Translations under genes and position numbers: made by a program
The notes under the pieces: model-generated
The model's database searches: none
Told to the model about the DNA's origin: nothing
Seen by the model: the letters and a program-made list of their open reading frames with translations, nothing else
Shown here: in pieces, positions 1,141 to 39,637 of the stretch
How the letters are laid out: every line of letters begins with the position of its first letter
Numbering within the stretch: the first letter of the stretch is position 1
Virus record (IMG/VR): IMGVR_UViG_3300026233_000017
Length of the DNA: 64,000 nt
Strand: one strand, 5' to 3'
Origin: a virus

Positions 1141-3293
1141 ATCTCGCTGACGGGTATGCACTGATGGTTCAGGCAGCGGTCGAGGGCATGCGCCCGGACC
1201 CCGAGCTGCTCTGCGACGAGTGGGCCGAGGAGTTCATGGTCCTGCCCAAGAGCGGCCCGAAGCCGGGGCGCTTCAGTTTCGACCACAGCTATCCAGCGCG
1301 TCGCGTGCACCAGGTGCTGTCGCCTGGCCACCCCTGCAAACGGGTGGTGGCGAAGGTCGCATCTCAGATGTTCAAGACGCAGACGGCTCTGAACTGGATC
1401 GGCTCGCTGATCCATCGCCGGCCGCGCAACATCCTGGCCCTCGAGCCGACGGATACCCTGGTCAAGCGCTTCTCGGCGCGGATCTCGACCATGATCCGCA
1501 GCGTGCCGGAACTGAAAGAGCGCGTGGCTGCGGCGAAGAGCCGCGACTCCCGGAATACGGTGCAGGCCAAGGATTTTCTGGGCGACGCGACGCTGTACAT
1601 GAACACGGCTGGCTCGGCCGCCAACCTGGCCGAAGTCTCCGCCCCCTACATCTACGTCGACGAGATCGACCGGCTCGAGCTGAACGTCGATGGCGAAGGC
1701 GATCCTGTCGAGCTGGCCGAGGCCCGGGCCACGCAGTACGCGAACGACGCCAAGTTTTTCTACACCTCCAGCCCGGCCATCGAGGGCTTCTCGAAGATCG
1801 ACACCCTCTTCGAGATGGGCACAAAGGAGTACTACCACGTCCCGTGCCCGCACTGCGGCGAGCTGCACGCCCTGCTGCTTGAGAACTTCAAGTATCGGCG
1901 CGATGAAGACACAGGCTTCATGGTCCGGGCTTGGTTCGACTGCCCACATTGCGGCTGCGAGATCGACGAACGGCACAAGACCTCGATGCTGCGCGACGTG
2001 GCGGCTGGCGGCCAGGCACGATGGGTCGCCACGGCCCAGGGCGATGGCGAGACCATCAGCTTCACGCTGTCGGCCTTCTACATGCCGGTGGGCGCGATCA
2101 CCTGGCTCACGCTGGCGCGCCAGTACGCGCGGGCAAAGGACCGCCTGGCGCGTGGCGATCACGAGGCCATGCAGGTGTTCTACAACACCCGCCTGGGCCT
2201 GTCGTACAAGAATTCGGAGACCGTGACCACGGCCAAACAGCTGCGCGACAGGGCTGAGAAATACCCGCTGCGCGTACTGCCCGACGCGGCCCTGGTGGCC
2301 ATCCTGACGGCTGACACCCAGCCCAACCGCTTGGAGGTGCAGATCGAGGCCTGGGGGCCTGGCCTGGAGCATTGGGTGATCGACTATATCGTCCTCAACG
2401 GCGCGCCCACCGACCCGCCCGATACGCCGGGCAGCGTGTGGCAGCGCCTGGACGAGATCCGGCGCACGCCGCTGCTTCACGCATCGGGCCGGCCCATCAT
2501 GATCAGCGCCTATGGCATCGATGCCGGTGGCGCGAACACGCAGGATGTCTACAACTACGGGTCAGCGCGCCGCACCTTGAACTGCACGGTGCTGCATGGT
2601 TCCTCGCGCCCGAACAAGCCCATCATGGGCAGCGCTCCCAGCCGCGTGGACATCGATTGGGGCGGCACCAAGACGCCCGGCGGCGTAGAGCTGTGGACGG
2701 TCGGTACCGACGTCGCCAAGGACTGGCTTTCCAACCGCATGCAGTTGGCCGAAGGCCCGGGCGCCATGCACTTCAACGATGCCCTGCCACCCGAATGGTT
2801 CGACCAGATGGTGGTAGAGCAGGCGCGTACGCGCTGGCAGAAGGGCCGCGCCATCCGCGAATGGGTCAAGCCCAATGGCGCGCGAAACGAGGCCTGGGAC
2901 GTCAGTGTCTACAACCTTGCCATCGCCCATCAGCTGGGGCTGCACAAGTGGACCCCGTTGGATTGGCAGCGGCTGCGCGACAAGCTGATCCCCCCTATCG
3001 GCGATCTGTTCGCACCTGTACCGGCGCCAGTGCCGGCCCCCGTGCTGGCGGCGGCGCCAGTGCCCGAGCCGGTCGCGCCCGTGGCGCCCGTCCCGCAGCC
3101 TGCACCTGTGCCGGTACAGACGTCTGTACACGCCGAAGCGCCAAGCCCCGCGAGCGTGGTCCTGCCGCCGCCTGCAATGCCGCCACCGGCACCTGTCCCG
3201 CCCCCGCCGCCTGTCGCGGCCCGTTCGCCATTGCCCCACGTTGCCCGCCCGGCGCCCGTTGGCCGCCGCATTTACTCAAGAGGAATCCAATGA
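1137..3293 (+). CDS. terL: Terminase large subunit, lambda GpA family
   Basis: Walker A-like 'VASQMFKT', Walker B 'YVDEID', CPHC zinc motifs, nuclease 'DTQ', 'RNEAWD'. Confidence 0.93.
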   Translation: MNLADGYALMVQAAVEGMRPDPELLCDEWAEEFMVLPKSGPKPGRFSFDHSYPARRVHQVLSPGHPCKRVVAKVASQMFKTQTALNWIGSLIHRRPRNILALEPTDTLVKRFSARISTMIRSVPELKERVAAAKSRDSRNTVQAKDFLGDATLYMNTAGSAANLAEVSAPYIYVDEIDRLELNVDGEGDPVELAEARATQYANDAKFFYTSSPAIEGFSKIDTLFEMGTKEYYHVPCPHCGELHALLLENFKYRRDEDTGFMVRAWFDCPHCGCEIDERHKTSMLRDVAAGGQARWVATAQGDGETISFTLSAFYMPVGAITWLTLARQYARAKDRLARGDHEAMQVFYNTRLGLSYKNSETVTTAKQLRDRAEKYPLRVLPDAALVAILTADTQPNRLEVQIEAWGPGLEHWVIDYIVLNGAPTDPPDTPGSVWQRLDEIRRTPLLHASGRPIMISAYGIDAGGANTQDVYNYGSARRTLNCTVLHGSSRPNKPIMGSAPSRVDIDWGGTKTPGGVELWTVGTDVAKDWLSNRMQLAEGPGAMHFNDALPPEWFDQMVVEQARTRWQKGRAIREWVKPNGARNEAWDVSVYNLAIAHQLGLHKWTPLDWQRLRDKLIPPIGDLFAPVPAPVPAPVLAAAPVPEPVAPVAPVPQPAPVPVQTSVHAEAPSPASVVLPPPAMPPPAPVPPPPPVAARSPLPHVARPAPVGRRIYSRGIQ

Positions 3294-3784
3294 CCCGCCA
3301 CGACGATCTCCACGACCCCGAAGCCCTGCGCCTGGCAGCCCCCGCGCCCGGCCAGGACGATGAGGCCGAGCCTCACGCCGACTATGAACAGCAGAACCTG
3401 GACCAGCTGTGCGAGCGCTGGGTGGCCTGGAAAGCCACTCGGCGCTTCTACGGGCCATCGCCGAGCATGGGGTCGATCCTGGGCCAGCTCAGCGGTGCGC
3501 GCACCAGGCCGCTGCGCACAGATGGGCCGAACGCTGCCTGCAGCGCTGAGCTGGCGGCCTTCCACCTGGCATACCAGTGCCAGCCGGATGCGCTGGACAA
3601 GCGGGTGTTCGACCTCTACTACGTGCATCGGGTCACGCCCGTGAAGGTCGCCGCCTCTGCGCTGGAGATCAGCCGCCAGCACTACTACCTGGTGTTGGCC
3701 TCGTTCCGAAAGCGGCTTTACTCTGCGTCACAGGCCATTCTTGAGGAATGGAATCCAGGCAATAGCGCAGAAGTCAAGGATTAA
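3290..3784 (+). CDS. Putative late-gene regulator (Q-like antiterminator, C-terminal HTH)
   Basis: 164 aa with SD AGAGGA; C-terminal sigma-region-4-like 'VKVAASALEISRQHYY'; followed by promoter-like region and terminator. Confidence 0.55.
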   Translation: MTRHDDLHDPEALRLAAPAPGQDDEAEPHADYEQQNLDQLCERWVAWKATRRFYGPSPSMGSILGQLSGARTRPLRTDGPNAACSAELAAFHLAYQCQPDALDKRVFDLYYVHRVTPVKVAASALEISRQHYYLVLASFRKRLYSASQAILEEWNPGNSAEVKD

Positions 3785-3786
3785 AG

Positions 3787-3860
3787 TGTCAGCTCTGGAT
3801 ATGACAATTTAGGCCTCGCTTTGATATGACACTTTGGCCCAAAATTGGCATCAATTCAGG
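3787..3860 (+). promoter_or_regulatory. Putative late promoter with GATATGACA direct repeats
   Basis: GATATGACA at 3798-3806 and 3823-3831; TGTCA-N10-TGACA; AT-rich island in GC-rich DNA. Confidence 0.5.
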
Positions 3861-3933
3861 TAGGTCTAAAAAATCCGCCTGAGGCAGAAAACACCCTCCC
3901 GACACCCAACCGCAGCAGCGAAAGTCGGTATCA

Positions 3934-3970
3934 GCCCCCGGTCTCCGAAAGGAGTCGGGGGCTTTGTTTT
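3934..3970 (+). terminator. Intrinsic terminator in late leader (tR'-like)
   Basis: GCCCCCG-gt-CTCC-gaaa-GGAG-t-CGGGGGC then TTTGTTTT, 14 nt before the first late ATG. Confidence 0.7.
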
Positions 3971-3983
3971 GGAGCCTTCATTC

Positions 3984-4736
3984 ATGCTTTCCATCCAACG
4001 CACGGGCGCCTCGATCGCTGACGTGATCGCGTCCGTGCGCGGTGTGCCGTCGCGCATGATCCCCTATGCGGCGGCCACTGCGCTTACCCGCTGCGCCAAG
4101 CAGGCGCAGACCGAGGATCTGCCGGCCGAGATGCGCAAGGTGTTCTCCAACCCCGTGCCCTATACGCTCAACGCGCTGCGCATCGAGCCTGCCAACAAGG
4201 ACAACCTGATGGCGCGCGTCATGGTCAAGACCGGCGCGCATGCCCCGGGCGTCGCCCCGGAAAACTTCCTGTTCCCCGAGGTCGAGGGCGGCGTGCGCAA
4301 GCACAAGGGCCTGGAGATGGCCCTGCGCTACCAGGGCGTGCTGTCGCCCACGCAGTACGCCATGCCTGGAGCAGCAGCCAAGCTGGATGCCTACGGCAAC
4401 GTCAGCGGCGCCCAGGTTCGCACCATCCTCAACGCCCTCAAGGGCATCCGCGCCGCCAGCTCCACGCGCGACCGTGCCACGGGTGCCAAGCTGCGCAAGG
4501 GCCGGCGCCTGGCCAACGACATGTTCGTAGGCCAGCCGCAGGGCGGTGTTCGGCCTGACGGCATCTGGCGGCGCGAGGGCAAGCGCCTGCGCGCCCTGTT
4601 CGTCTTCACCAGCGACGCGCCGGACTACTCGGTTCGGCTCGACTTCAGCGGCACCGTGCAGCGTGTGGCGCTGGCGCGCTTCCGCCCCGAGTTCGAGCGT
4701 GCGATCGCCGACCTGCAATCCAAAGGATCTTGGTAA
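3984..4736 (+). CDS. Phage virion morphogenesis protein (gpZ/HK97-gp10-like tail completion, tentative)
   Basis: SD GGAG, ATG at 3984; basic protein, first gene of late operon. Confidence 0.55.
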   Translation: MLSIQRTGASIADVIASVRGVPSRMIPYAAATALTRCAKQAQTEDLPAEMRKVFSNPVPYTLNALRIEPANKDNLMARVMVKTGAHAPGVAPENFLFPEVEGGVRKHKGLEMALRYQGVLSPTQYAMPGAAAKLDAYGNVSGAQVRTILNALKGIRAASSTRDRATGAKLRKGRRLANDMFVGQPQGGVRPDGIWRREGKRLRALFVFTSDAPDYSVRLDFSGTVQRVALARFRPEFERAIADLQSKGSW

Positions 4737-4978
4737 TGACTGATGCCGCCACTGAGCTGACGCAGGAGCGCGAGCGCCTGCAGTCCTATCTCGACGCCGA
4801 GCAACGCATCCTGAACTCGCAGGAGTACATGATCGGCAACGGACAGACCGCCAGGCGCAACCGCCGCGCCGATCTCGAGCAGGTTCGCGCAGGCATTGAG
4901 CAGTGCCGCGCCAATATTGAGCGCCTGCAGGGCCGGGCCGGCCGCGTGCGCCGCGTCGCTTACCTGTCGCCCCGGTAA
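4736..4978 (+). CDS. Head-tail adaptor (gpW-like)
   Basis: 80 aa directly before portal; 'AEQRILNSQEYMIG...RRADLEQVRAGI'. Confidence 0.7.
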   Translation: MTDAATELTQERERLQSYLDAEQRILNSQEYMIGNGQTARRNRRADLEQVRAGIEQCRANIERLQGRAGRVRRVAYLSPR

Positions 4979-4984
4979 ACCGCC

Positions 4985-6586
4985 ATGGAACTCAATCTGC
5001 TTGACCGCGCGATTGCAGCGGTGGCTCCGGGCTGGGCGGCCGATAGGGCGCTGTCCCGCGCCAAGATCCAGACGCTGGGGGCAATGCAGGCAATGGGCGG
5101 CGAGATGCCATCCGCCGGTTCTGCCTCTCCACGCCGCTTCTGGAGCCCGCGTCCCCGGGATGCTCGGTCGGACACGATGCGCCAACTGCCTTTCCAGCGT
5201 GGCGCCTCGCGCGAGCTGGCGCGCACCAGCCCCATCGCCGTGGGTGCCATCAACACCAACATCGACCGGGTCGTGGGCACAGGCCTGGCGCTCAGCGCGC
5301 AGCCGAATCTGGCGGTGCTGGGCTGGTCGCGCGATCGCGCGCTGGCCTGGAAAGCCAAGGTGCAGCAGGAATTCAGCCTGTGGGCCGACAGCACCGAGTG
5401 CGATATCGAGGGCAAACAGAATTTCTACCAGCTGCAGGCTCTGGTGCTGCGGTCGGCGCTGGAAAGTGGCGACTGCTTCTCGCTGCTGCCTGATGGCGAG
5501 CGCACGGCCACCCAGCCCTACGAGCTGCGCATCCAGGTGCTGGAAGCCGATCGCGTCGGCAACCCCGGTGGCAAGGCCGACAGTGACACCGTCGCCGGCG
5601 GTGTACGCCTGAACGCTCACGGTGCACCAGAGGCCTACCACCTGTACGACAAGCACCCGGGCAGCGGCTTGCCGGCAGTGGGTGGCGCGTACAGGGGCGA
5701 ATGGATCGAACGCCTGGGTCGCAGCGGTCGCCGCCGCATGCTGCACCACTTCCGCTGCCTACGCCCGGGCATGCCCCGGGGCGTGCCTTACCTGGCGCCC
5801 ATCATCGACTGCATCAAGCAGATCTCGCGCTACACCGAGGCCGAGATCATGGCGGCGGTGCTAACCGCCTACCTCACGGTGTTCATCGAAGCACCAGGGG
5901 GCAACGCGGCGCCGGTATTCGACGGCACCAGCTCGACCCACTCCGAGGCCCCGGCCGACATCGCCCTGGGCCAGGGCGCGGTCATAGGCCTGCAGCCTGG
6001 CGAGAAGGTCCAAATGGTGAACCCGGTGCGGCCGAATCCGAACTTCGAGCCCTTCATCCAGGCCGTCATCAAGCAGATGGGCATCGCCCTGGGCCTTCCC
6101 TTCGAGCTGCTGACCAAGCAATTCAACGCCAGCTATTCCGCGAGCAAGGCCGCGCTGCTGGATGCCTGGGTGTACTTCCGCAGCGTGCGCTACTGGCTTT
6201 CGCTGAGCTTCTGCCAACCCGTGTTCGAGACCTGGCTGGCCGAAGCCGTGGCCATTGGCCGCGTGCCCGCGCCGGGCTTCTTTGCCGACCCGCTGCTGCG
6301 CTGGGCCTACACGCGGGCCGCATGGCCGGGCGACAGCATGGGCAGCATCGATCCCAAGGCCGAGGTGGAGGCCTACGTCGAGGCCATCGACGCGCGGCTG
6401 ATGACTCGCGAGCGTGCCGAGTGGGAACTGTTCGGCAGCGGATGGGATGAGACCTACGACCAGAAGCTGGCCGAGTACGAGCGACTGGTCAAAGACGGAA
6501 TGCTGCCCACGCCCAAGGCCGGCGCTGCGGCGCCCCAGCAACCCAAAACAACCCCTCCGAAACAAGCCCCCCAGGAGCAGGAATGA
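4985..6586 (+). CDS. Portal protein, lambda family
   Basis: 533 aa; 'RGVPYLAP', 'LGLPFELL', 'ASYSASKAALL', 'IDPKAEV'. Confidence 0.92.
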   Translation: MELNLLDRAIAAVAPGWAADRALSRAKIQTLGAMQAMGGEMPSAGSASPRRFWSPRPRDARSDTMRQLPFQRGASRELARTSPIAVGAINTNIDRVVGTGLALSAQPNLAVLGWSRDRALAWKAKVQQEFSLWADSTECDIEGKQNFYQLQALVLRSALESGDCFSLLPDGERTATQPYELRIQVLEADRVGNPGGKADSDTVAGGVRLNAHGAPEAYHLYDKHPGSGLPAVGGAYRGEWIERLGRSGRRRMLHHFRCLRPGMPRGVPYLAPIIDCIKQISRYTEAEIMAAVLTAYLTVFIEAPGGNAAPVFDGTSSTHSEAPADIALGQGAVIGLQPGEKVQMVNPVRPNPNFEPFIQAVIKQMGIALGLPFELLTKQFNASYSASKAALLDAWVYFRSVRYWLSLSFCQPVFETWLAEAVAIGRVPAPGFFADPLLRWAYTRAAWPGDSMGSIDPKAEVEAYVEAIDARLMTRERAEWELFGSGWDETYDQKLAEYERLVKDGMLPTPKAGAAAPQQPKTTPPKQAPQEQE

Positions 6587-25258: not shown

Positions 25259-25777
25259 ATGCTCGAAGCCATCAAGTCCAAGGCCTGGCAGGCCGGCGCC
25301 CTGGTGCTGGCCGCACTGCTGGCCCTGCAGACCTGGCGCCTGCACGGCGAGCAGCTCGCCCACCAGCGCCTGATCGCGGCCCAGGCCCAGCAAGTGGCCG
25401 GCCAGGCCGTCGCGGGTCTGACCTTGGAGCGAAAGCTCGCCACATCCGAATCCACCCACGCAGCACAAACCCAGGAGGCATCCGATGCATTCACCCAGGC
25501 CCGCCCTGCGCGCGACGCTGTTGTGCGCGCTGATCTCGACCGTGTTGAGCGGCTGCGCCTCGCCGCCGAACGCAGCGCAGCCACTGCCCGGGCGCAAGCC
25601 CAGGCCAACGCCGCTGCCGGCCGCGATCTTGCAGATCGATACGGCGCCCTCGCTCAGCACGTTGCAAGCGGGGCAGCAGTGGTTGCAGGACTCCGAGCGG
25701 ATCTTGCACGTCGAGACGATGAGGTAGTGCTGCTGCGCACCCAGATCGACGTCGACCGGGGCCTGCTGGCCCCCTGA
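25259..25777 (+). CDS. i-spanin (Rz-like)
   Basis: N-terminal TM followed by Ala-rich coiled coil, after endolysin. Confidence 0.8.
   Translation: MLEAIKSKAWQAGALVLAALLALQTWRLHGEQLAHQRLIAAQAQQVAGQAVAGLTLERKLATSESTHAAQTQEASDAFTQARPARDAVVRADLDRVERLRLAAERSAATARAQAQANAAAGRDLADRYGALAQHVASGAAVVAGLRADLARRDDEVVLLRTQIDVDRGLLAP
25485..25727 (+). CDS. o-spanin (Rz1-like lipoprotein), fully embedded in +1 frame
   Basis: SD AGGAGG at 25473-25478; lipobox LSGC; Pro-rich mature part. Confidence 0.85.
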   Translation: MHSPRPALRATLLCALISTVLSGCASPPNAAQPLPGRKPRPTPLPAAILQIDTAPSLSTLQAGQQWLQDSERILHVETMR

Positions 25778-25788
25778 AAAAAAGAACG

Positions 25789-25888
25789 AGGCGACCGGGT
25801 CGGTGCTGTAACACCGACCAAGCCGCCGAACCCACAGAACGCGCCTGTGAGCCCAGCCGAGGCCCCGTCCACCTGTACAGGCGGGGGC
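25789..25888 (+). ncRNA. Candidate structured leader upstream of DNA methylase
   Basis: Three hairpins: GGTCGGTG/CACCGACC, CACAG/CTGTG, CCCCG..CCT-gtac-AGG.CGGGG; no ORF. Confidence 0.35.
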
Positions 25889-25913
25889 AATATATCAAAC
25901 TCTGGAGCCCATC

Positions 25914-26708
25914 ATGGCGAACCCTATCGTCCCCTGGCTTGGCGGCAAGCGCCGTCTGGCCGATGTCATCGTGCCCCGTTTCCCCCCGCACAAGTGCTAC
26001 GTCGAGGTCTTTGCAGGAGGCGCGGCGCTCTATTTCATGCGCCCGCCGGCCGAGGTCGAAGTCATCAACGATATCAATGGCGAGCTGGTCAATCTGTACC
26101 GGATCGTGCAGAGGCACCTCGAAGAATTTGTGCGCCAGTTCAAGTGGGCGTTGTCCTCGCGCGAGGTCTTCAAATGGCTGCAGATCACACGGCCGGAAAC
26201 CCTGACCGACATCGAGCGCGCGGCGCGTTTCTACTACCTCCAGCACCAAGCCTTCGGCGGCAAGGTTTCCGGTCAGACGTGGGGCACGGCCACGACCGCG
26301 CCCGCCCCCACGGTGAATCTCCTACGGCTCGAAGAGGATCTGAGTGCGGCCCACATGCGGCTGCATGGTGCCTACATCGAGCGCCTTGATTGGCAAGACT
26401 GCATGAAGCGGTACGACCGGCCACACACGCTGTTTTATTTGGACCCCCCGTATTGGGAAACCGAGGGGTACGGCGTGCCTTTCCCCTGGGCGGAATACGA
26501 GGCGATGGCCGACCGCATGCGCAACCTGCAGGGCAAGGCAGTGCTGAGCATCAACGACCATCCGGCCATTCGGGAATGCTTCGCTGGCCTGCACGTCGAG
26601 GTCGTGCCGATCACGTACATCGTGGCCGGCGGCGGCAGCGGCGTGCAGCGCACCGAGCTGGTCTACAGCAGTTGGGATCGTGCTGCGGAGCCCGTCGGGC
26701 TGTTTTGA
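25914..26708 (+). CDS. DNA adenine methyltransferase (Dam/D12 class), orphan
   Basis: 'PWLGGK', 'EVFAGG', 'NDIN', catalytic 'DPPY'. Confidence 0.92.
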   Translation: MANPIVPWLGGKRRLADVIVPRFPPHKCYVEVFAGGAALYFMRPPAEVEVINDINGELVNLYRIVQRHLEEFVRQFKWALSSREVFKWLQITRPETLTDIERAARFYYLQHQAFGGKVSGQTWGTATTAPAPTVNLLRLEEDLSAAHMRLHGAYIERLDWQDCMKRYDRPHTLFYLDPPYWETEGYGVPFPWAEYEAMADRMRNLQGKAVLSINDHPAIRECFAGLHVEVVPITYIVAGGGSGVQRTELVYSSWDRAAEPVGLF

Positions 26709-26722
26709 CTTTTGCGGCCGAG

Positions 26723-26932
26723 TCAACCCTCTGGGCACCACTCCATTGCCCAATCCAAAGCATCTTCAGCTGTGGGGTACGGCCCATCAAAGGCTTGGAT
26801 GCCGCGCTCGTTGTCCCAGAGGGTGCCGGACCAGCGCCGGGCGGCTGGAAATGGTAGGTGGCTGTAGTCCACTACGACGGCATACCAGCCGGGGTGGACT
26901 GGCACTCCATCCCAAGTGAGTCCGTCAGGCAT
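26723..26932 (-). CDS. Hypothetical protein (SOS operon gene 3), Trp/acidic-rich
   Basis: 69 aa, overlaps upstream stop by 8 nt. Confidence 0.55.
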   Translation of the reverse strand: MPDGLTWDGVPVHPGWYAVVVDYSHLPFPAARRWSGTLWDNERGIQAFDGPYPTAEDALDWAMEWCPEG

Positions 26933-27092
26933 GACGCACCGGCAGGATCTGCACCGGCCCTAGTCCACTATGCACGACTTGGCCGCCGGGTCCAAAAACG
27001 ACGAACCAGTCGGGCGCCTGCTGTTCTATTCGGTACTCTTCCGGGCGGCCAGGCAGTAACTCCTCCTCTGGCCTGCCAAACCAGGGGTGCAT
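26925..27092 (-). CDS. Hypothetical protein (SOS operon gene 2)
   Basis: 55 aa from ATG at 27092. Confidence 0.5.
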   Translation of the reverse strand: MHPWFGRPEEELLPGRPEEYRIEQQAPDWFVVFGPGGQVVHSGLGPVQILPVRHA

Positions 27093-27138
27093 ACGCAGAA
27101 TCGTCGGATAGATCAGCGGCGGATGCATAACTGGCTCC

Positions 27139-27594
27139 TCAACGGGTCATGGGCATCTCGCGCCCCTGTTCGGCGTACCACCGCTCAGCGACGCTGGGTG
27201 TTTCGGAGCGGGGTGGCATGGTCTCTGGTAGCTTCGGCGAAAACCGAGCGGCGTCGAACTGTGCAAGGGGCGGCCCATCGACTGATGGACAGGGTCTGAT
27301 CAGCCACACCTGCTCATATTCAGCAATACCCGCATCGGTGCGGGCGCATACGTGGCCGCGCCATAGCATTGCATCTCCGAGGATGTCCAGAAGCACTGGC
27401 TCCCACAGGTGTGGACCCGGGACCATATGCGTGCTCCACTCAACCCACAGCGCCGCCTCTCGCATGCTGCGTCGGTTGTTGTTGGACCGCCCGTTCAAGT
27501 AAGTGATGCGCAGATCCCCCCGGACGGGAGCTGGCCAGTCTTTAGGCGCCAGACGGAGGCCAGCGCGACGGAGTTCGATGATTTCGCAGAACAC
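27139..27594 (-). CDS. Hypothetical protein (SOS operon gene 1), probably leaderless
   Basis: 151 aa; GTG abuts the SOS box, 6 nt downstream of a TATATT -10. Confidence 0.65.
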   Translation of the reverse strand: MFCEIIELRRAGLRLAPKDWPAPVRGDLRITYLNGRSNNNRRSMREAALWVEWSTHMVPGPHLWEPVLLDILGDAMLWRGHVCARTDAGIAEYEQVWLIRPCPSVDGPPLAQFDAARFSPKLPETMPPRSETPSVAERWYAEQGREMPMTR

Positions 27595-27609
27595 TGTTTG
27601 AATATACAG
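27594..27609. promoter_or_regulatory. LexA (SOS) box
   Basis: CTGTTTGAATATACAG fits CTGT-N8-ACAG; lies between divergent genes, one of them SRAP. Confidence 0.85.
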
Positions 27610-27676
27610 TGTTTTTTTGATGCTCGAAAGTTAGCATGTACTCCTGACAATCCCGGATGGTCATCAGGAGGTCATC

Positions 27677-28369
27677 ATCTGCAACCGATACAACACCCCA
27701 CGCGAGACCGAGATCGAGCGCGTTTTTCGGATCGGCCGACAGGCGCCGAACAGGTGGTGGAAGCCACACGTTACGCCGCTGGCGTTGGGGCCGTATATCA
27801 AGCCCGGTGGCGAGATTGAGGTGGGGCAGTGGGGGATGATCCCGCGCAGCTCTCCCACGCGCCGGCCGACTACCCGCGACGGGACGCCCATGTCAACGAA
27901 CAACGCCCGGCGCGAGACCATCGCGAAGTCTTGGACGTACGCGCCTGCATGGCGAGCCGGCCAGCGCTGTCTGATCCCCGCCGAGTCGTGGATCGAGCCG
28001 TATTGGGGCCTCGGGTCGCGCAATGTGTGGTGGTCGTTCCAGCGCGCGGACGGGCAGCCGGCGGCCCTGGCCGGGCTCTATAGCGAATGGACGGACCCGG
28101 AGACCGGGGAGCTTGTCCCGAACTACACCATGATCACGCAGCCTGCAGACGGCGACCCAGTGCTCGCGCTGATGCACCGGCCCGGCAAGGAAAAGCGCGG
28201 CGTCGTGATGCTTGAGCAGCAGGACTGGGATGCCTGGCTGCACGGAACGGCCGCCCAGGCTGATGCGCTGATCAGGCTGCCGCCGCTCGGCGTGCTTCGG
28301 AGCGGAGCGGAAAAGCCCGAGGATGAGAATCTGCTGCCCTCAGACCAACTAGCGTTACTTAAACAATAA
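27677..28369 (+). CDS. SOS response-associated peptidase (SRAP/HMCES/YedK family), ATC start
   Basis: (I)CNRYN N-terminus, 'NNARRET', 'RCLIPAESWIEP', 'ALAGLY', 'MH...KRGVVML'; AGGAGG 5 nt before ATC; no in-frame ATG upstream. Confidence 0.8.
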   Translation: MCNRYNTPRETEIERVFRIGRQAPNRWWKPHVTPLALGPYIKPGGEIEVGQWGMIPRSSPTRRPTTRDGTPMSTNNARRETIAKSWTYAPAWRAGQRCLIPAESWIEPYWGLGSRNVWWSFQRADGQPAALAGLYSEWTDPETGELVPNYTMITQPADGDPVLALMHRPGKEKRGVVMLEQQDWDAWLHGTAAQADALIRLPPLGVLRSGAEKPEDENLLPSDQLALLKQ

Positions 28370-28408
28370 CTAGACGCGGTTCTTTCTCGATTTTGTGAGG
28401 TCCTCTTG

Positions 28409-28510
28409 TAAGTTATTGATGTAAAACGATGAGAATGGATTGCAAATCCGGTTAGACCAGTTCGACTCTGGTTCGCGCCTCCAAGAATATTAAAGAAAAT
28501 CAAATACTTA
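28409..28510. promoter_or_regulatory. Inverted 12-mers flanking att core (putative integrase/accessory binding sites)
   Basis: TAAGTTATTGAT (28409-28420) and reverse-strand TAAGTATTTGAT (28499-28510), 10/12 match. Confidence 0.5.
28437..28483 (+). other. attP core = 3' half of tRNA-Cys(GCA)
   Basis: GGATTGCAAATCC anticodon arm, T-arm GTTCGAC, acceptor 3' GCGCCTCCA; 5' half absent. Confidence 0.88.
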
Positions 28511-28659: not shown

Positions 28660-29874
28660 GTGAGTTTGTCGAGTGTGCGCAAAACGCCCCGAGGGCGATA
28701 TGAGCTGACGATTCGCAGCAAGCTGCTGCCGAAGCCGGTCTATATGACGTTCGACGACCAGGCCGAGGCTGAGCAGTACGGCCAGCAGGTCGACCAGCTG
28801 CTCGCTGCCGGGGTGGTGCCGGCGGGCCTGGTGCAGCAGACGGCTTCAGCCCCGAAGCCCACTGAGCGGCTGCGATTCGTGCTGGTGGCTTGGATCAACA
28901 CAGGCCAGCCGGCGGCCACCGACATCCCGGTCCTCGAGCTGCTGGTCGATGAGGTGGGCAAGGTGCTGATCGCCGACCTCACCTACAAATGGGCCGAGGC
29001 CTGGGTGCGCAGCCTCAAGCTGGAGCGCAATTTCTCGCCGGGCACCATCCGCAAGCGCGTGGGCTCTCTGTCACGCTGCCTGGATTGGTGGCTGCGGCAG
29101 CATCCCGACGCCATGGTGGGCAATCCGCTGCGTCTGTTGCCAAAGGGTGCGGCCACATACACCCCGAAGGACCGGGCCGACATCGAGGCGCTCAACGCTG
29201 CGGCCGGGGACCAGGCCAGGCCCAAGGTTGCCAAGGAAGATGTCCAGCGCGAGCGGCGGCTGCTGCCTGGCGAGCTGGAGCGCATCGAACGGGTGCTGGC
29301 CGGCGAGCGGCGGCCGGACCGCGAGCGCACCATCAAGCTGGACGATGCGCCAGCCCTGCGCGCAATGTTCCTGCTGATCCTGTACACCGGACTGCGGCTG
29401 CGCGAGGCCTATACGCTTCGGCGTGGGCAGTTCGGCCTGGCGACGCGGGTCATCCGCGCCAAGGCTAGCAAGCAGTGGCACGGAAAGGTCAAGTACCGCG
29501 AGGTGCCCATTCGGCCCGAGCTGCTCGGGGTGCTGGAGGCCTACCTGCAGGCCCTGCCGGATGATGGCGAGCAGCAGCTGGTGTTTCCGTGGTGGACGGG
29601 GGAAGAGGATGCGCAGGAGCTGGCCAGGGTCTCGTCGCGGCTGTCCAATCGGTTCGCCAGCCTGTTCAGCTATGCGCAGTGCGACGGTCTGACGGAGCAC
29701 GACCTGCGGCATGAGGCGACGTGCCTATGGTTCGAGATGCGTACCAAGACAGGGGACTGGATGTTCCGCGAGGCAGAGATTCACCGCATCATGGGCTGGG
29801 CGCCTGGCAGCAAGATGGCTCAGCGGTACGCCAGCTTCCGTGCGGAAGATCTGGCGGCCCGGATGTGGTCTTAG
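28660..29874 (+). CDS. int: Tyrosine integrase
   Basis: 'YTGLRLRE', 'HDLRHE', 'MGW', 'QRY'; SD GGAGG; adjacent to attP. Confidence 0.93.
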   Translation: MSLSSVRKTPRGRYELTIRSKLLPKPVYMTFDDQAEAEQYGQQVDQLLAAGVVPAGLVQQTASAPKPTERLRFVLVAWINTGQPAATDIPVLELLVDEVGKVLIADLTYKWAEAWVRSLKLERNFSPGTIRKRVGSLSRCLDWWLRQHPDAMVGNPLRLLPKGAATYTPKDRADIEALNAAAGDQARPKVAKEDVQRERRLLPGELERIERVLAGERRPDRERTIKLDDAPALRAMFLLILYTGLRLREAYTLRRGQFGLATRVIRAKASKQWHGKVKYREVPIRPELLGVLEAYLQALPDDGEQQLVFPWWTGEEDAQELARVSSRLSNRFASLFSYAQCDGLTEHDLRHEATCLWFEMRTKTGDWMFREAEIHRIMGWAPGSKMAQRYASFRAEDLAARMWS

Positions 29875-38856: not shown

Positions 38857-39276
38857 TCAGGCTGCGCTTCTATGGCTTTTTGTGAGGGCGTCTGCCTCCC
38901 GTGTCTCCACTACAGCTTGCACGGTAGCGTTGAGTCGTATCCAGTCTTCCCGCGTAAGCGCGTCAAGCCTGGCTCGGGCGATTGTGAAAGGCCAATCAAC
39001 TGGTGCGGATTGCGCGGGCTCCTGCTCGCGTTTGTGCACGTTGTCCATCCATCCGACCTCGAGCTGCAGCTTGTCCTCCATCTCCCGCGCCATGGGGCTG
39101 CCCATGTTGTAAGGCTTGCCTCCCCGGTCGTGCCTTACGTTGGCGTTGAGTATTCGGGTGAGCGTGGCGGTCTCGTTCCGGGCATAGCCCAGCTTCTCGC
39201 AAAGGTTCGCCATCCCGGCGTGCTGGTCGACCAGCACTTGCAGGTTGGCGCGCCTAATTTCTTCAACAGTTCGCAT
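38857..39276 (-). CDS. cI: Immunity repressor (CI-like HTH, no S24 domain)
   Basis: 'EEIRRANLQVLVDQHAG..LCEKLG....LTRIL...MGSPMAREMEDKL..GWMD'; divergent from cro. Confidence 0.8.
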   Translation of the reverse strand: MRTVEEIRRANLQVLVDQHAGMANLCEKLGYARNETATLTRILNANVRHDRGGKPYNMGSPMAREMEDKLQLEVGWMDNVHKREQEPAQSAPVDWPFTIARARLDALTREDWIRLNATVQAVVETREADALTKSHRSAA

Positions 39277-39289
39277 CCGGGCGATTCCA

Positions 39290-39357
39290 CTGTCCACGGG
39301 GGAAAAAGAAAATTCCCCAATGGGTCTTGCGTTACTTTCCCCATTGGGGAATAAAAT
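39290..39357 (+). promoter_or_regulatory. OR operators and PR promoter
   Basis: Perfect TTCCCCA-T-TGGGGAA at 39337-39351, variants at 39313 and 39290; TTGCGT...TAAAAT. Confidence 0.75.
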
Positions 39358-39364
39358 GCGCGCC

Positions 39365-39637
39365 ATGGACCTACTCAAATCTTGGTTGACCGGCGGGAGA
39401 GGGCGTTGCGCCGGGTTGGCGCGCCACCTCAACGTCTCGCCCTCGTTCGTGAACAAGATGGCGAACGGCGAGCGGCCCATCCCTGCCGAGCACGGGGCTG
39501 ACATTGAGAAATTCACCTTGGGTGCGGTCTCCCGCCCAGCGATGTTCCCTGTGCGGTGGAAACGGATCTGGCCCGAGATGTTGGATGCTGCGACGCAGGG
39601 CGCGGCCGCTCTTGACGTCGGGGATGGCAATGCATAG
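39365..39637 (+). CDS. cro: Cro/YdaS-family regulator
   Basis: 'LARHLNVSPSFVNKMANGERPIPAEH..IEKFT.GAVSR..MFP..W..IW'. Confidence 0.85.
   Translation: MDLLKSWLTGGRGRCAGLARHLNVSPSFVNKMANGERPIPAEHGADIEKFTLGAVSRPAMFPVRWKRIWPEMLDAATQGAAALDVGDGNA

What the first reader, a model, noticed from the sequence alone, without database searches (positions are those of the whole stretch)
26723..27609. LexA-controlled, leaderless three-gene operon of unknown proteins: candidate induction switch
Seen: a consensus SOS box overlaps a TATATT -10 and abuts the GTG of the first of three coupled minus-strand ORFs (151, 55, 69 aa). The phage repressor has no S24 self-cleavage domain. Known: phages with non-cleavable repressors (186 Tum, N15 AntC, Gifsy, Fels-2) are induced by LexA-controlled antirepressors. 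Inference: one of these unannotated proteins is a new antirepressor or SOS modulator.
Basis: partly seen in the sequence, partly recalled or inferred. Interest (0 to 1): 0.72.

Follow-up and report, generated by a model that had tools for sequence, protein, structure and literature searches.

The report
SOS-controlled leaderless phage cargo operon
A temperate Delftia-type phage carries a three-gene operon whose first start codon is fused to a binding site for LexA, the host DNA-damage repressor; dozens of relatives share the layout, but sibling phages show it is swappable damage-induced cargo of unknown function, probably not the phage's wake-up switch.

Summary
The window is a wrapped circular 43,252-bp phage genome. 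Its only perfect CTGT-N8-ACAG box (27594-27609) ends on the G of the GTG that starts a 151-aa gene, followed by coupled 67-aa (not 55) and 69-aa genes. All three show purifying selection. In 19 related loci (down to about 40% identity) the box sits in the same phase while upstream DNA is unconserved. No Shine-Dalgarno can fit, so a leaderless, LexA-gated transcript is the simplest reading; no TSS was mapped.

The antirepressor reading is weak. About half of the phages carrying the module have HTH-S24 self-cleaving repressors. Alleles of the 151-aa protein that are 91-99% identical sit beside unrelated repressors. Two sibling phages with the same repressor (99% and 87%) lack the operon and any perfect SOS box, and carry other cargo at that site. 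There is no similarity to Tum.

The operon often shares its operator with a divergent SRAP gene. The 151-aa protein models as a PH-like binding domain and belongs to an unnamed family of at least 157 clusters.

Best reading: exchangeable SOS-induced cargo that acts on a conserved target. Earlier notes of this scan described the same or a similar layout on other genomes. Complex prediction closed before its result could be collected.

The parts
27594..27609 (.). LexA operator (SOS box), CTGT-N8-ACAG; the only perfect one in the genome
   Evidence: Same box in the same phase in 19 related loci. Host lexA and recA carry the same motif type.
27601..27606 (-). -10-like TATATT inside the operator; it would place +1 on the G of the GTG at 27594 (inferred leaderless start)
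   Evidence: Geometry read. There is no room for a Shine-Dalgarno. Not mapped experimentally; the RNA-run contigs were uninformative.
27139..27594 (-). Gene 1, 151 aa (GTG start): PH-like beta domain (residues 1-103) plus a conserved Pro-rich and helical tail. Founding member here of an unnamed family.
   Evidence: No Pfam, PHROG, NCBIfam or PADLOC hit.
26925..27128 (-). Gene 2, 67 aa: small six-stranded beta protein that travels with gene 1 in nearly all related loci
26723..26932 (-). Gene 3, 69 aa, overlapping gene 2 by 8 nt. Found only in the close Delftia clade; elsewhere replaced by a second copy of gene 2 or absent.
27677..28369 (+). Divergent SRAP (YedK/HMCES-type) gene with an ATC in the Met1 position before Cys2, 68 nt from the operator
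   Evidence: Pfam PF02586, E 1.8e-24.. ATC-TGC conserved in 7 loci. Adjacent to the module in at least 4 clades.
27630..27639 (+). Conserved GTTAGCAT element between operator and SRAP; possible SRAP -10 (TAGCAT). Inference only.
   Evidence: Conserved in both SRAP types of the Delftia clade.
25769..28436 (.). Exchangeable cargo segment (Dam methylase 25914-26708, the operon, SRAP) between the lysis genes and the attP/integrase side
   Evidence: Homology to siblings G420 and G421 stops at 25768 and resumes at 28437. They carry other genes there.
38857..39276 (-). CI-type repressor, 139 aa (gene callers also give a 169-aa form), with no S24 domain.
   Evidence: phrog_12107. No Pfam S24. Family alignment.

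Best explanation
This is a LexA-repressed, probably leaderless cargo operon at the variable locus between the lysis genes and attP of a temperate Delftia-type phage. It is not the core lysis-lysogeny switch.

In a lysogen, host LexA sits on one operator that covers the operon's -10-like hexamer and its start codon. That operator lies just upstream of the divergent SRAP gene, so both directions are probably kept off. After DNA damage, RecA-stimulated LexA self-cleavage frees the site. Transcription then starts at or next to the GUG, and the mRNA is translated without a Shine-Dalgarno.

The products are a 151-aa protein with a PH-like protein-binding domain and a conserved tail, a co-inherited 67-aa beta protein, and a lineage-specific 69-aa protein. 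Neither modelled protein (151 aa and 67 aa) resembles an enzyme. I infer that they bind a conserved target of the DNA-damage response (host SOS or repair machinery, or SRAP-related processes), not this phage's particular repressor.

Shown: the operator, its fixed phase on the start codon across the family, coding selection, the mobility of the module, and its lack of linkage to any repressor type.
Inferred: the transcription start, co-repression of SRAP, protein binding, and the target.
For: Operator-start fusion is conserved in 19 loci with unconserved upstream DNA. It is also present in distant members L037-L039, L043/44, L047/48 and L063. The translated box appears in mis-called N-termini of further family members.

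Host lexA and recA carry the same motif type.

The module occurs in unrelated phage backbones: Aval-type myovirus, a P2-like prophage with ogr and gpD, and lambdoid-like phages. It lies at a prophage edge next to host genes in L008.

Homoimmune siblings G420 and G421 carry other cargo at the same site: a low-GC methylase plus a protein with a DGQHR sequence motif, and a protein that reads as RelA/SpoT-like (both read from the translations, no family search run). They have no homologue and no perfect SOS box.

The repressor types of carriers are diverse, and half are self-cleaving.

SRAP is adjacent in several independent arrangements. It is divergent with a 45-83-nt spacer in three groups: two Delftia lineages whose SRAPs are only 43% identical, and the L007/L032 clade. 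It is on the same strand in L045 and nearby in L043/44.

The fold is PH/RanBD/EVH1-like (Z 5-6, rmsd 2.2-3.9 A over 72-89 residues) with no catalytic signature.
Against: No expression data exist. The RNA-run contigs cannot show a start, and one of them spans the operator.

A GUG at the 5' end is a poor leaderless start in E. coli (my own knowledge), and the -35 region is weak (one search found no sigma-70 match).

This phage has a repressor that cannot self-cleave, only one LexA box, and no recognisable Ant, Rha or KilAC gene. So if it is SOS-inducible at all, the signal would have to pass through this locus.

The heteroimmune sibling G405 has swapped both its immunity region and the body of this operon, which is what antirepressor co-variation would look like. 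This is a single case.

Seven carrier records have no SRAP at all, so any link to SRAP is optional.

The target is unknown.
Confidence: 0.6

Rival explanations
1. Induction switch: one of the three proteins is a LexA-controlled antirepressor that inactivates this phage's CI, which cannot self-cleave, as Tum does in coliphage 186.
For: CI lacks S24. This is the only LexA box in the genome. No other antirepressor-like gene was found. Heteroimmune sibling G405 has exchanged both the immunity region and the operon body, while the flanks are 98-100% identical. The 151-aa alleles vary in patches. 8 of 15 carrier records show no S24 repressor.
Against: Aval and 7 of 15 carrier records have HTH-S24 repressors. 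Alleles 91-99% identical pair with different repressors. This CI type is present in only 1 of 10 carrier records. Siblings with the same CI (99% and 87%) lack the operon and any perfect SOS box; those contigs are rated 63-65% complete but align along the whole phage. No similarity to Tum.
Confidence: 0.15
2. SOS-triggered toxin, abortive-infection or cell-division-blocking pair: the 151-aa and 67-aa proteins form an effector/partner pair kept silent by LexA and released on DNA damage or on infection by another phage.
For: The locus is a hot spot that holds defence-like cargo in the siblings (methylase plus DGQHR-motif protein; RelA/SpoT-like protein). The two genes are strictly co-inherited, and two loci have duplicated copies of gene 2. 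Operator-on-start is a very tight form of repression. The 67-aa model weakly resembles a DUF2283-type small beta protein (TM 0.52, E 0.06).
Against: No PADLOC, Pfam or NCBIfam hit. No membrane segment or enzymatic motif. Distant family members stand alone without the 67-aa partner. No toxicity data.
Confidence: 0.2
3. The operator serves the SRAP gene only, and the three ORFs are expressed from elsewhere or not at all.
For: SRAP genes are linked to SOS operons in many bacteria (PMC3765255). The spacer between operator and SRAP is short.
Against: The operator keeps its exact phase on the start codon in loci that have no SRAP (L008, L018, L021-L027, L031). All three ORFs are under purifying selection.
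Confidence: 0.05

Closest known systems
Coliphage 186 SOS operon (p95, tum, orf97)
   Same: A LexA operator over the -10 of a promoter that drives a small operon of accessory proteins in a temperate phage whose CI cannot self-cleave (record U32222). Tum is 146 aa, a similar size.
   Different: No sequence relationship (hhalign probability below 1%). Tum has a leader of about 25 nt, whereas here the operator is fused to the start codon. Tum belongs to its phage's switch, whereas this module is absent from homoimmune siblings and present in phages with self-cleaving repressors.
LexA-controlled antirepressors of Gifsy/Fels-2/N15 and Sar of SPbeta-family phages
   Same: Small phage proteins behind an SOS box that turn host DNA damage into a phage response (PMC3121763; bioRxiv 10.1101/2025.11.27.690993).
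   Different: In SPbeta-family phages the antirepressors were shown to be specific to their own repressor. Here no co-variation with repressor type was found.
SRAP/YedK SOS-associated gene neighbourhoods
   Same: An SRAP gene linked to LexA-regulated genes. SRAP was already noted in temperate phages and Burkholderia prophages (PMC3765255).
   Different: The partners described there are UmuCD, ImuAB-DnaE2, DinB, Ku/ligase and helicases. The 151-aa family is not among them, at least in the passages I read.
Other SOS-box cargo of prophages (for example P1 HumD-type UmuD' cassettes)
   Same: Damage-induced accessory genes near a prophage end, sometimes beside SRAP (earlier scan notes e1-136443 and e1-1964487).
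   Different: Unrelated proteins. Those cassettes have ordinary leaders.
Leaderless phage transcripts such as lambda cI from PRM
   Same: Transcription would start on the start codon, with no Shine-Dalgarno (my own knowledge of lambda).
   Different: Here the start is mostly GUG, and the operator itself supplies the -10 and +1. The start has not been mapped.

Membership tests
LexA-controlled antirepressor (Tum / AntC / Gfo / Sar type) | LexA operator at the gene's promoter | tested here: met
   Perfect box on the start codon, conserved in relatives.
LexA-controlled antirepressor (Tum / AntC / Gfo / Sar type) | The resident repressor lacks a RecA-dependent self-cleavage domain | tested here: inconclusive
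   Met in this phage. Aval and 7 of 15 carrier records have HTH-S24 repressors.
LexA-controlled antirepressor (Tum / AntC / Gfo / Sar type) | The antirepressor is cognate to, and co-varies with, its repressor | tested here: not met
   Alleles 91-99% identical sit with different repressors. This CI type is in 1 of 10 carrier records. Siblings with CI 99% and 87% identical lack the module. One counter-example: G405 swapped both regions.
LexA-controlled antirepressor (Tum / AntC / Gfo / Sar type) | Sequence homology to a known antirepressor (186 Tum tested) | tested here: not met
   hhalign probability 0.04-0.14%. No Pfam or PHROG hit.
LexA-controlled antirepressor (Tum / AntC / Gfo / Sar type) | Physical binding to the repressor and induction on expression | not testable with these tools
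SOS regulon member (LexA-repressed gene) | The operator matches the motif used by the host's own LexA | tested here: met
   CTG-N10-CAG sites with AT-rich spacers lie upstream of lexA and recA in a Delftia and an Acidovorax genome.
SOS regulon member (LexA-repressed gene) | Induction by DNA damage; LexA binding in vitro | not testable with these tools
   Only contigs of RNA runs were available, and they were uninformative.
Leaderless mRNA | No 5' UTR or Shine-Dalgarno; -10 about 7 nt before the start codon | tested here: met
   The operator fills -15..+1, and TATATT ends 7 nt before the G. Starts lie 0-4 nt from the box in 19 loci.
Leaderless mRNA | Transcription start mapped on the start codon | not testable with these tools
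   Contigs cannot show RNA ends.
PH-like (pleckstrin homology / RanBD / EVH1) fold | Seven-stranded beta sandwich capped by a helix, matched to solved PH-like domains | tested here: inconclusive
   Model pLDDT 84. VIA-align Z 5-6.1, rmsd 2.2-3.9 A over 72-89 residues. Foldseek E 6e-3, TM 0.40. These values are below the level that excludes a common arrangement.
Known anti-phage defence or toxin-antitoxin families (PADLOC, Pfam, NCBIfam) | Profile match to a described component | tested here: not met
   No hits for any of the three proteins.
SRAP (PF02586), the divergent neighbour | Profile match, and Cys directly after the initiator | tested here: met
   E 1.8e-24. An ATC codon precedes TGC behind AGGAGG, conserved in 7 loci.

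The most novel reading that the evidence does not exclude
The 151-aa PH-like protein and its 67-aa partner are a new class of phage-borne SOS effector. They would be held off by an operator built into the start codon and, once released, would bind a conserved component of the damage response (RecA, LexA, SRAP-DNA adducts or the replisome). That would re-tune repair, mutagenesis or the length of the SOS state for the benefit of the prophage. A broad-specificity antirepressor would be a special case of this.
Probability: 0.25. Interest if true: 0.7.

Novelty: new variant of a known kind. Interest (0 to 1): 0.45.

Why it matters
SOS-controlled prophage genes decide when phages wake and how damaged lysogens behave. 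Most such small genes are unannotated.

This report defines an unnamed protein family of at least 157 clusters at 50% identity. Its close members, several distant ones, and others inferred from mis-called N-termini carry a LexA operator on or beside the start codon, and the gene often travels with SRAP. The report also gives a practical warning: 'a repressor without S24 plus an SOS box' does not by itself identify an antirepressor. Sibling phages with the same repressor lack the module.

If the leaderless GUG start is confirmed, the family would be a clean natural example of an operator, a -10 and a start codon packed into 18 bases.

Tried and rejected
There is no result.
- RNA evidence: six RNA runs hold parts of the stretch. 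Only low-depth Logan contigs were available. One spans the operator, none shows an end, and DNA carry-over cannot be excluded. Nothing was inferred.
- No match for the three proteins in Pfam, PHROGs, NCBIfam or PADLOC.
- ESM Atlas feature hits were at or below 0.87 and unnamed. BFVD Foldseek gave nothing. For the 67-aa model the best Z was 4.0.
- megablast of the locus against INPHARED phages gave no match. tblastn found only phage Aval.
- The search for related loci with the 80-member distant alignment failed because no stretch was conserved enough.
- The window's own assembly is not held.
- The sigma-70 scan found no promoter at 9/12 matches.
- Distant members L041/42, L045/46, L061, L062, L064 and L065 show no CTGT-N8-ACAG nearby. 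Their contigs are short or their hosts unknown, so this is no evidence of absence of LexA control.
- The small upstream or downstream neighbours of distant members are not related to each other, to the 67-aa gene or to the 69-aa gene. Aval gp46c is not related to the 67-aa family.
- I looked for a clamp-binding or other known short motif in the tail by eye and rejected it as unconvincing.

Full report
WHAT THE WINDOW IS

Positions i and i+43252 are identical over all 20,748 comparable bases. The window is therefore a circular 43,252-bp genome at 66% G+C, written about 1.5 times. Its layout is that of a temperate phage:
- structural and tail genes from 1 to about 24 kb, then lysis genes;
- a D12-class adenine methylase (25914-26708, plus strand);
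- the three minus-strand ORFs of the finding;
- a divergent SRAP gene (27677-28369);
- an integrase (28660-29874);
- a leftward early operon with ParB-like and cytosine-methylase genes;
- a short CI (38857-39276, minus strand) facing a YdaS/Cro-like gene;
- primase/helicase genes.

Relatives are in Delftia and Acidovorax.

THE OBSERVATION

On the minus strand the sequence reads CTGTATATTCAAACAG followed by TG. The box is 27609..27594 and the GTG is 27594..27592, so they share one base. TATATT (27606..27601) ends 7 nt before that G.

It is the only perfect CTGT-N8-ACAG in the genome. One such site is expected by chance (0.72), and one-mismatch sites are at chance level (22 against 21). The sequence alone is therefore not significant.

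The evidence comes from comparison. I collected homologues of the 151-aa protein:
- 21 clusters at 90% identity;
- 6 genomic and 25 IMG/VR loci;
- phage Aval gp47c.

In every locus that has upstream DNA, a CTGTAT...ACAG box lies in the same position. In 17 of 19 stacked loci the last G of the box is the G of GTG. In two loci an ATG follows 1-4 nt later. Information content is about 2 bits in the half-sites and near zero from -19 upstream.

More distant members keep a box nearby:
- 1 nt before the ATG in L063;
- 13 nt before it in L047/48;
- in front of a short extra gene in L043/44 and in Aval.

Many database entries of the wider family were called with an N-terminal extension 'LYIYTV...'. This is the SOS box translated in frame.

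The hosts use this operator type. Both a Delftia and an Acidovorax genome have CTG-N10-CAG sites with AT-rich spacers upstream of lexA (two each) and recA.

The three ORFs are real genes. Against four relatives, changes pile up at third codon positions. For the 67-aa gene the counts are 3-7, 5-6 and 30-36 at positions 1, 2 and 3. The second ORF is 67 aa, not 55. The longer form has a GAGGAG in front, and its first 12 residues are conserved.

LEADERLESS OR NOT

The operator occupies the 15 bases before the start codon, so no Shine-Dalgarno can be present. The only -10-like hexamer at a workable distance is inside the operator, and it would put +1 on the G. The fixed phase over sequences down to about 40% identity argues that this geometry is selected.

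That is an inference. The sigma-70 scan found no full promoter and the -35 regions are weak. A 5' GUG is a poor leaderless start in E. coli (my own knowledge). The RNA-run material consists of low-depth contigs that cannot show ends.

WHAT THE PROTEINS ARE

None of the three matches Pfam, PHROGs, NCBIfam or PADLOC.

The 151-aa protein:
- AlphaFold2 with 25 relatives gives pLDDT 84: a beta domain (residues 1-103) plus a Pro-rich tail with two helices.
- The domain aligns with PH-like folds (RanBD, PH, EVH1, Dcp1) at Z 5-6.1, rmsd 2.2-3.9 A over 72-89 residues, and at Foldseek E 6e-3. This is suggestive, not decisive.
- AFDB cluster hits are all uncharacterised bacterial proteins.
- A profile search of 1.84 billion representatives finds 157 clusters (58 at E<=1e-10). 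Most are 100-130 aa and cover only the beta domain.
- In 401 sampled genomes of the order, 5 had a match, including the seed genome. The family is sporadic, as expected of mobile cargo.
- Conserved residues (R9, G12, L15, G26, G80, Q95, W97) do not look catalytic.

The 67-aa protein models as a six-stranded beta protein (pLDDT 84) without informative relatives. It accompanies the 151-aa gene in almost all related loci at matching divergence, and it is duplicated in L010 and L013.

The 69-aa gene is confined to the close Delftia clade.

IS IT THE INDUCTION SWITCH?

The phage's CI belongs to a family of short repressors with a strongly conserved HTH domain and no S24 domain. I found no Ant, Rha or KilAC-type gene. 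Four comparisons argue against it.

(1) Repressors of the carriers. Aval's CI (gp13c) is HTH + Peptidase_S24. Of 15 IMG/VR records that carry a homologue, 7 encode HTH-S24 repressors of at least four different kinds, and 8 show none. The module is therefore not tied to phages that need an antirepressor.

(2) No co-variation. Alleles of the 151-aa protein that are 91-99% identical (L010, L012, L016, L017) sit with different repressors. This phage's CI type occurs in 1 of 10 carrier records, at 33% identity. Characterised LexA-controlled antirepressors are specific to their own repressor.

(3) Siblings. G420 matches this phage at 90-95% nt identity over nearly its whole length and has a 99% identical CI. 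G421 has an 87% identical CI. In both, homology stops at 25768 and resumes at 28437.
   - G420 carries a low-GC cassette in between: a methylase, a protein with a DGQHR motif and a 310-aa protein.
   - G421 carries a protein that reads as RelA/SpoT-like. These two gene labels are my reading of the translations; no family search was run on them.
   - Neither sibling has a homologue of the 151-aa protein or any perfect SOS box.
   - CheckV rates these contigs 63-65% complete, so a copy elsewhere cannot be fully excluded. The contigs do, however, align along the whole of this phage.

(4) No similarity to 186 Tum.

One observation points the other way. The heteroimmune sibling G405 (92-95% identical genome-wide) has exchanged its immunity region and also the body of this operon. 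Identity is 98-100% from 27561 rightwards, through the operator and SRAP, and falls to 63-85% to the left. That is what a matched repressor/antirepressor swap would look like. It is a single case at a locus that is mosaic anyway.

THE COMPANY IT KEEPS

A divergent SRAP gene lies 45-83 nt from the start codon in two Delftia lineages whose SRAPs are only 43% identical to each other, and in the L007/L032 clade. In L045 SRAP is immediately upstream on the same strand. In L043/44 it is two genes away. With spacers of 45-51 nt, the SRAP promoter must overlap or abut the operator, so one LexA dimer probably controls both directions (inference).

Seven carrier records contain no SRAP at all, so SRAP is a frequent but optional companion. 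The same 151-aa allele (92% identical) pairs with either SRAP type. That argues against a tight physical partnership.

The module also appears in a P2-like prophage, between gpD and ogr and beside a WYL-BRCT protein. In L008 it lies at a prophage edge next to host genes.

MOST LIKELY MECHANISM

LexA bound at 27594-27609 blocks RNA polymerase at the operon's -10/+1 and at the neighbouring SRAP promoter. DNA damage removes LexA. A leaderless or near-leaderless mRNA then yields the PH-like protein, its small partner and, in this clade, the 69-aa protein, together with SRAP. Because the module moves between phage types, ignores repressor type and is dispensable in homoimmune siblings, I read it as damage-induced cargo that acts by binding a conserved target. 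I give this about 0.6.

Rivals:
- true antirepressor for this phage: 0.15;
- SOS-released toxin, abortive-infection or division-blocking pair: 0.2;
- operator serving SRAP only: 0.05.

COMPARISON WITH WHAT IS KNOWN, AND NOVELTY

The module works like other LexA-gated phage cassettes (186 p95-tum, Gifsy/N15/SPbeta antirepressors, HumD cassettes), but it fails the membership tests for the antirepressor class. The protein family is unnamed in every library searched. I did not find the operator-on-start-codon design, as a family trait, in the papers searched.

Earlier notes of this scan on other genomes describe the same or a similar layout and reached similar conclusions: e1-3598065, e1-2665200, e1-3540746, e1-3760099 and e1-3273755. 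This is therefore not the first sighting within the scan. I rate it a new variant of a known kind, with moderate interest.

LIMITS

No transcription start, LexA binding or phenotype data exist.

Noticed in passing
window 1-64000: The window is a circular 43,252-bp phage genome written about 1.5 times. Positions i and i+43252 are identical over 20,748 bases.
   Followed up: yes
window 27666-27682: The SRAP gene has ATC, not ATG, in front of the catalytic Cys2 codon, 5 nt behind AGGAGG. ATC-TGC is conserved in 7 diverged loci of this SRAP type, so it looks like a genuine non-canonical start and not a lesion. This was already noted by the scan as e1-5345724.
   Followed up: partly
L004, L010, L017, L007, L032 (SRAP side of the operator): In loci with only 45-51 nt between the two start codons, SRAP starts with ATG or GTG-TGC, has no Shine-Dalgarno, and has a -10-like hexamer (TAGCAT, TACAGT, TAAAGT) 6-7 nt upstream. 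SRAP may therefore be leaderless there too.
   Followed up: no
window 25769-28436, compared with G420 (L079) and G421 (L084/L082): The locus between the lysis genes and attP is a cargo hot spot. Sibling G420 holds a low-GC (42-48%) cassette there: a methylase, a 342-aa protein with a DGQHR motif and a 310-aa protein. Sibling G421 holds a 342-aa protein that reads as RelA/SpoT-like. Both labels come from reading the translations; both look like defence candidates.
   Followed up: partly
window about 27560: There is a sharp recombination junction inside the 5' end of the 151-aa gene. Identity to sibling G405 is 98-100% to the right (operator, SRAP) and 63-85% to the left. The conserved N-terminal codons plus the operator may serve as a recombination joint.
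   Followed up: partly
L053 (G405) about 2957-5625: Sibling G405 has about 2.7 kb of extra DNA between the 69-aa-like gene and the Dam methylase. Several Delftia loci have a fourth gene of about 95 aa after the 69-aa gene. I did not annotate these.
   Followed up: no
window 38857-39366: Gene callers give the CI as 169 aa, with 30 extra N-terminal residues. In this clade the protein ends in ...RSAA, which is reminiscent of a ClpXP-type C-terminal degron and could be another route to repressor inactivation.
   Followed up: no
L022 2227-3877: In a P2-like prophage the module sits beside a double-HTH protein and a WYL-BRCT protein, between ogr and gpD. WYL regulators are linked to DNA-damage responses.
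   Followed up: no
L010 2801-3019; L013 2940-3158: A second, diverged copy of the 67-aa gene (31-34% identical, ending ...SPAPF like the distant clades) replaces the 69-aa gene.
   Followed up: no
L001 146-442 (Aval gp48c); L043 2815-2994: In some lineages a short unrelated gene is inserted between the SOS box and the family member, which gives an ordinary leader and Shine-Dalgarno.
   Followed up: partly
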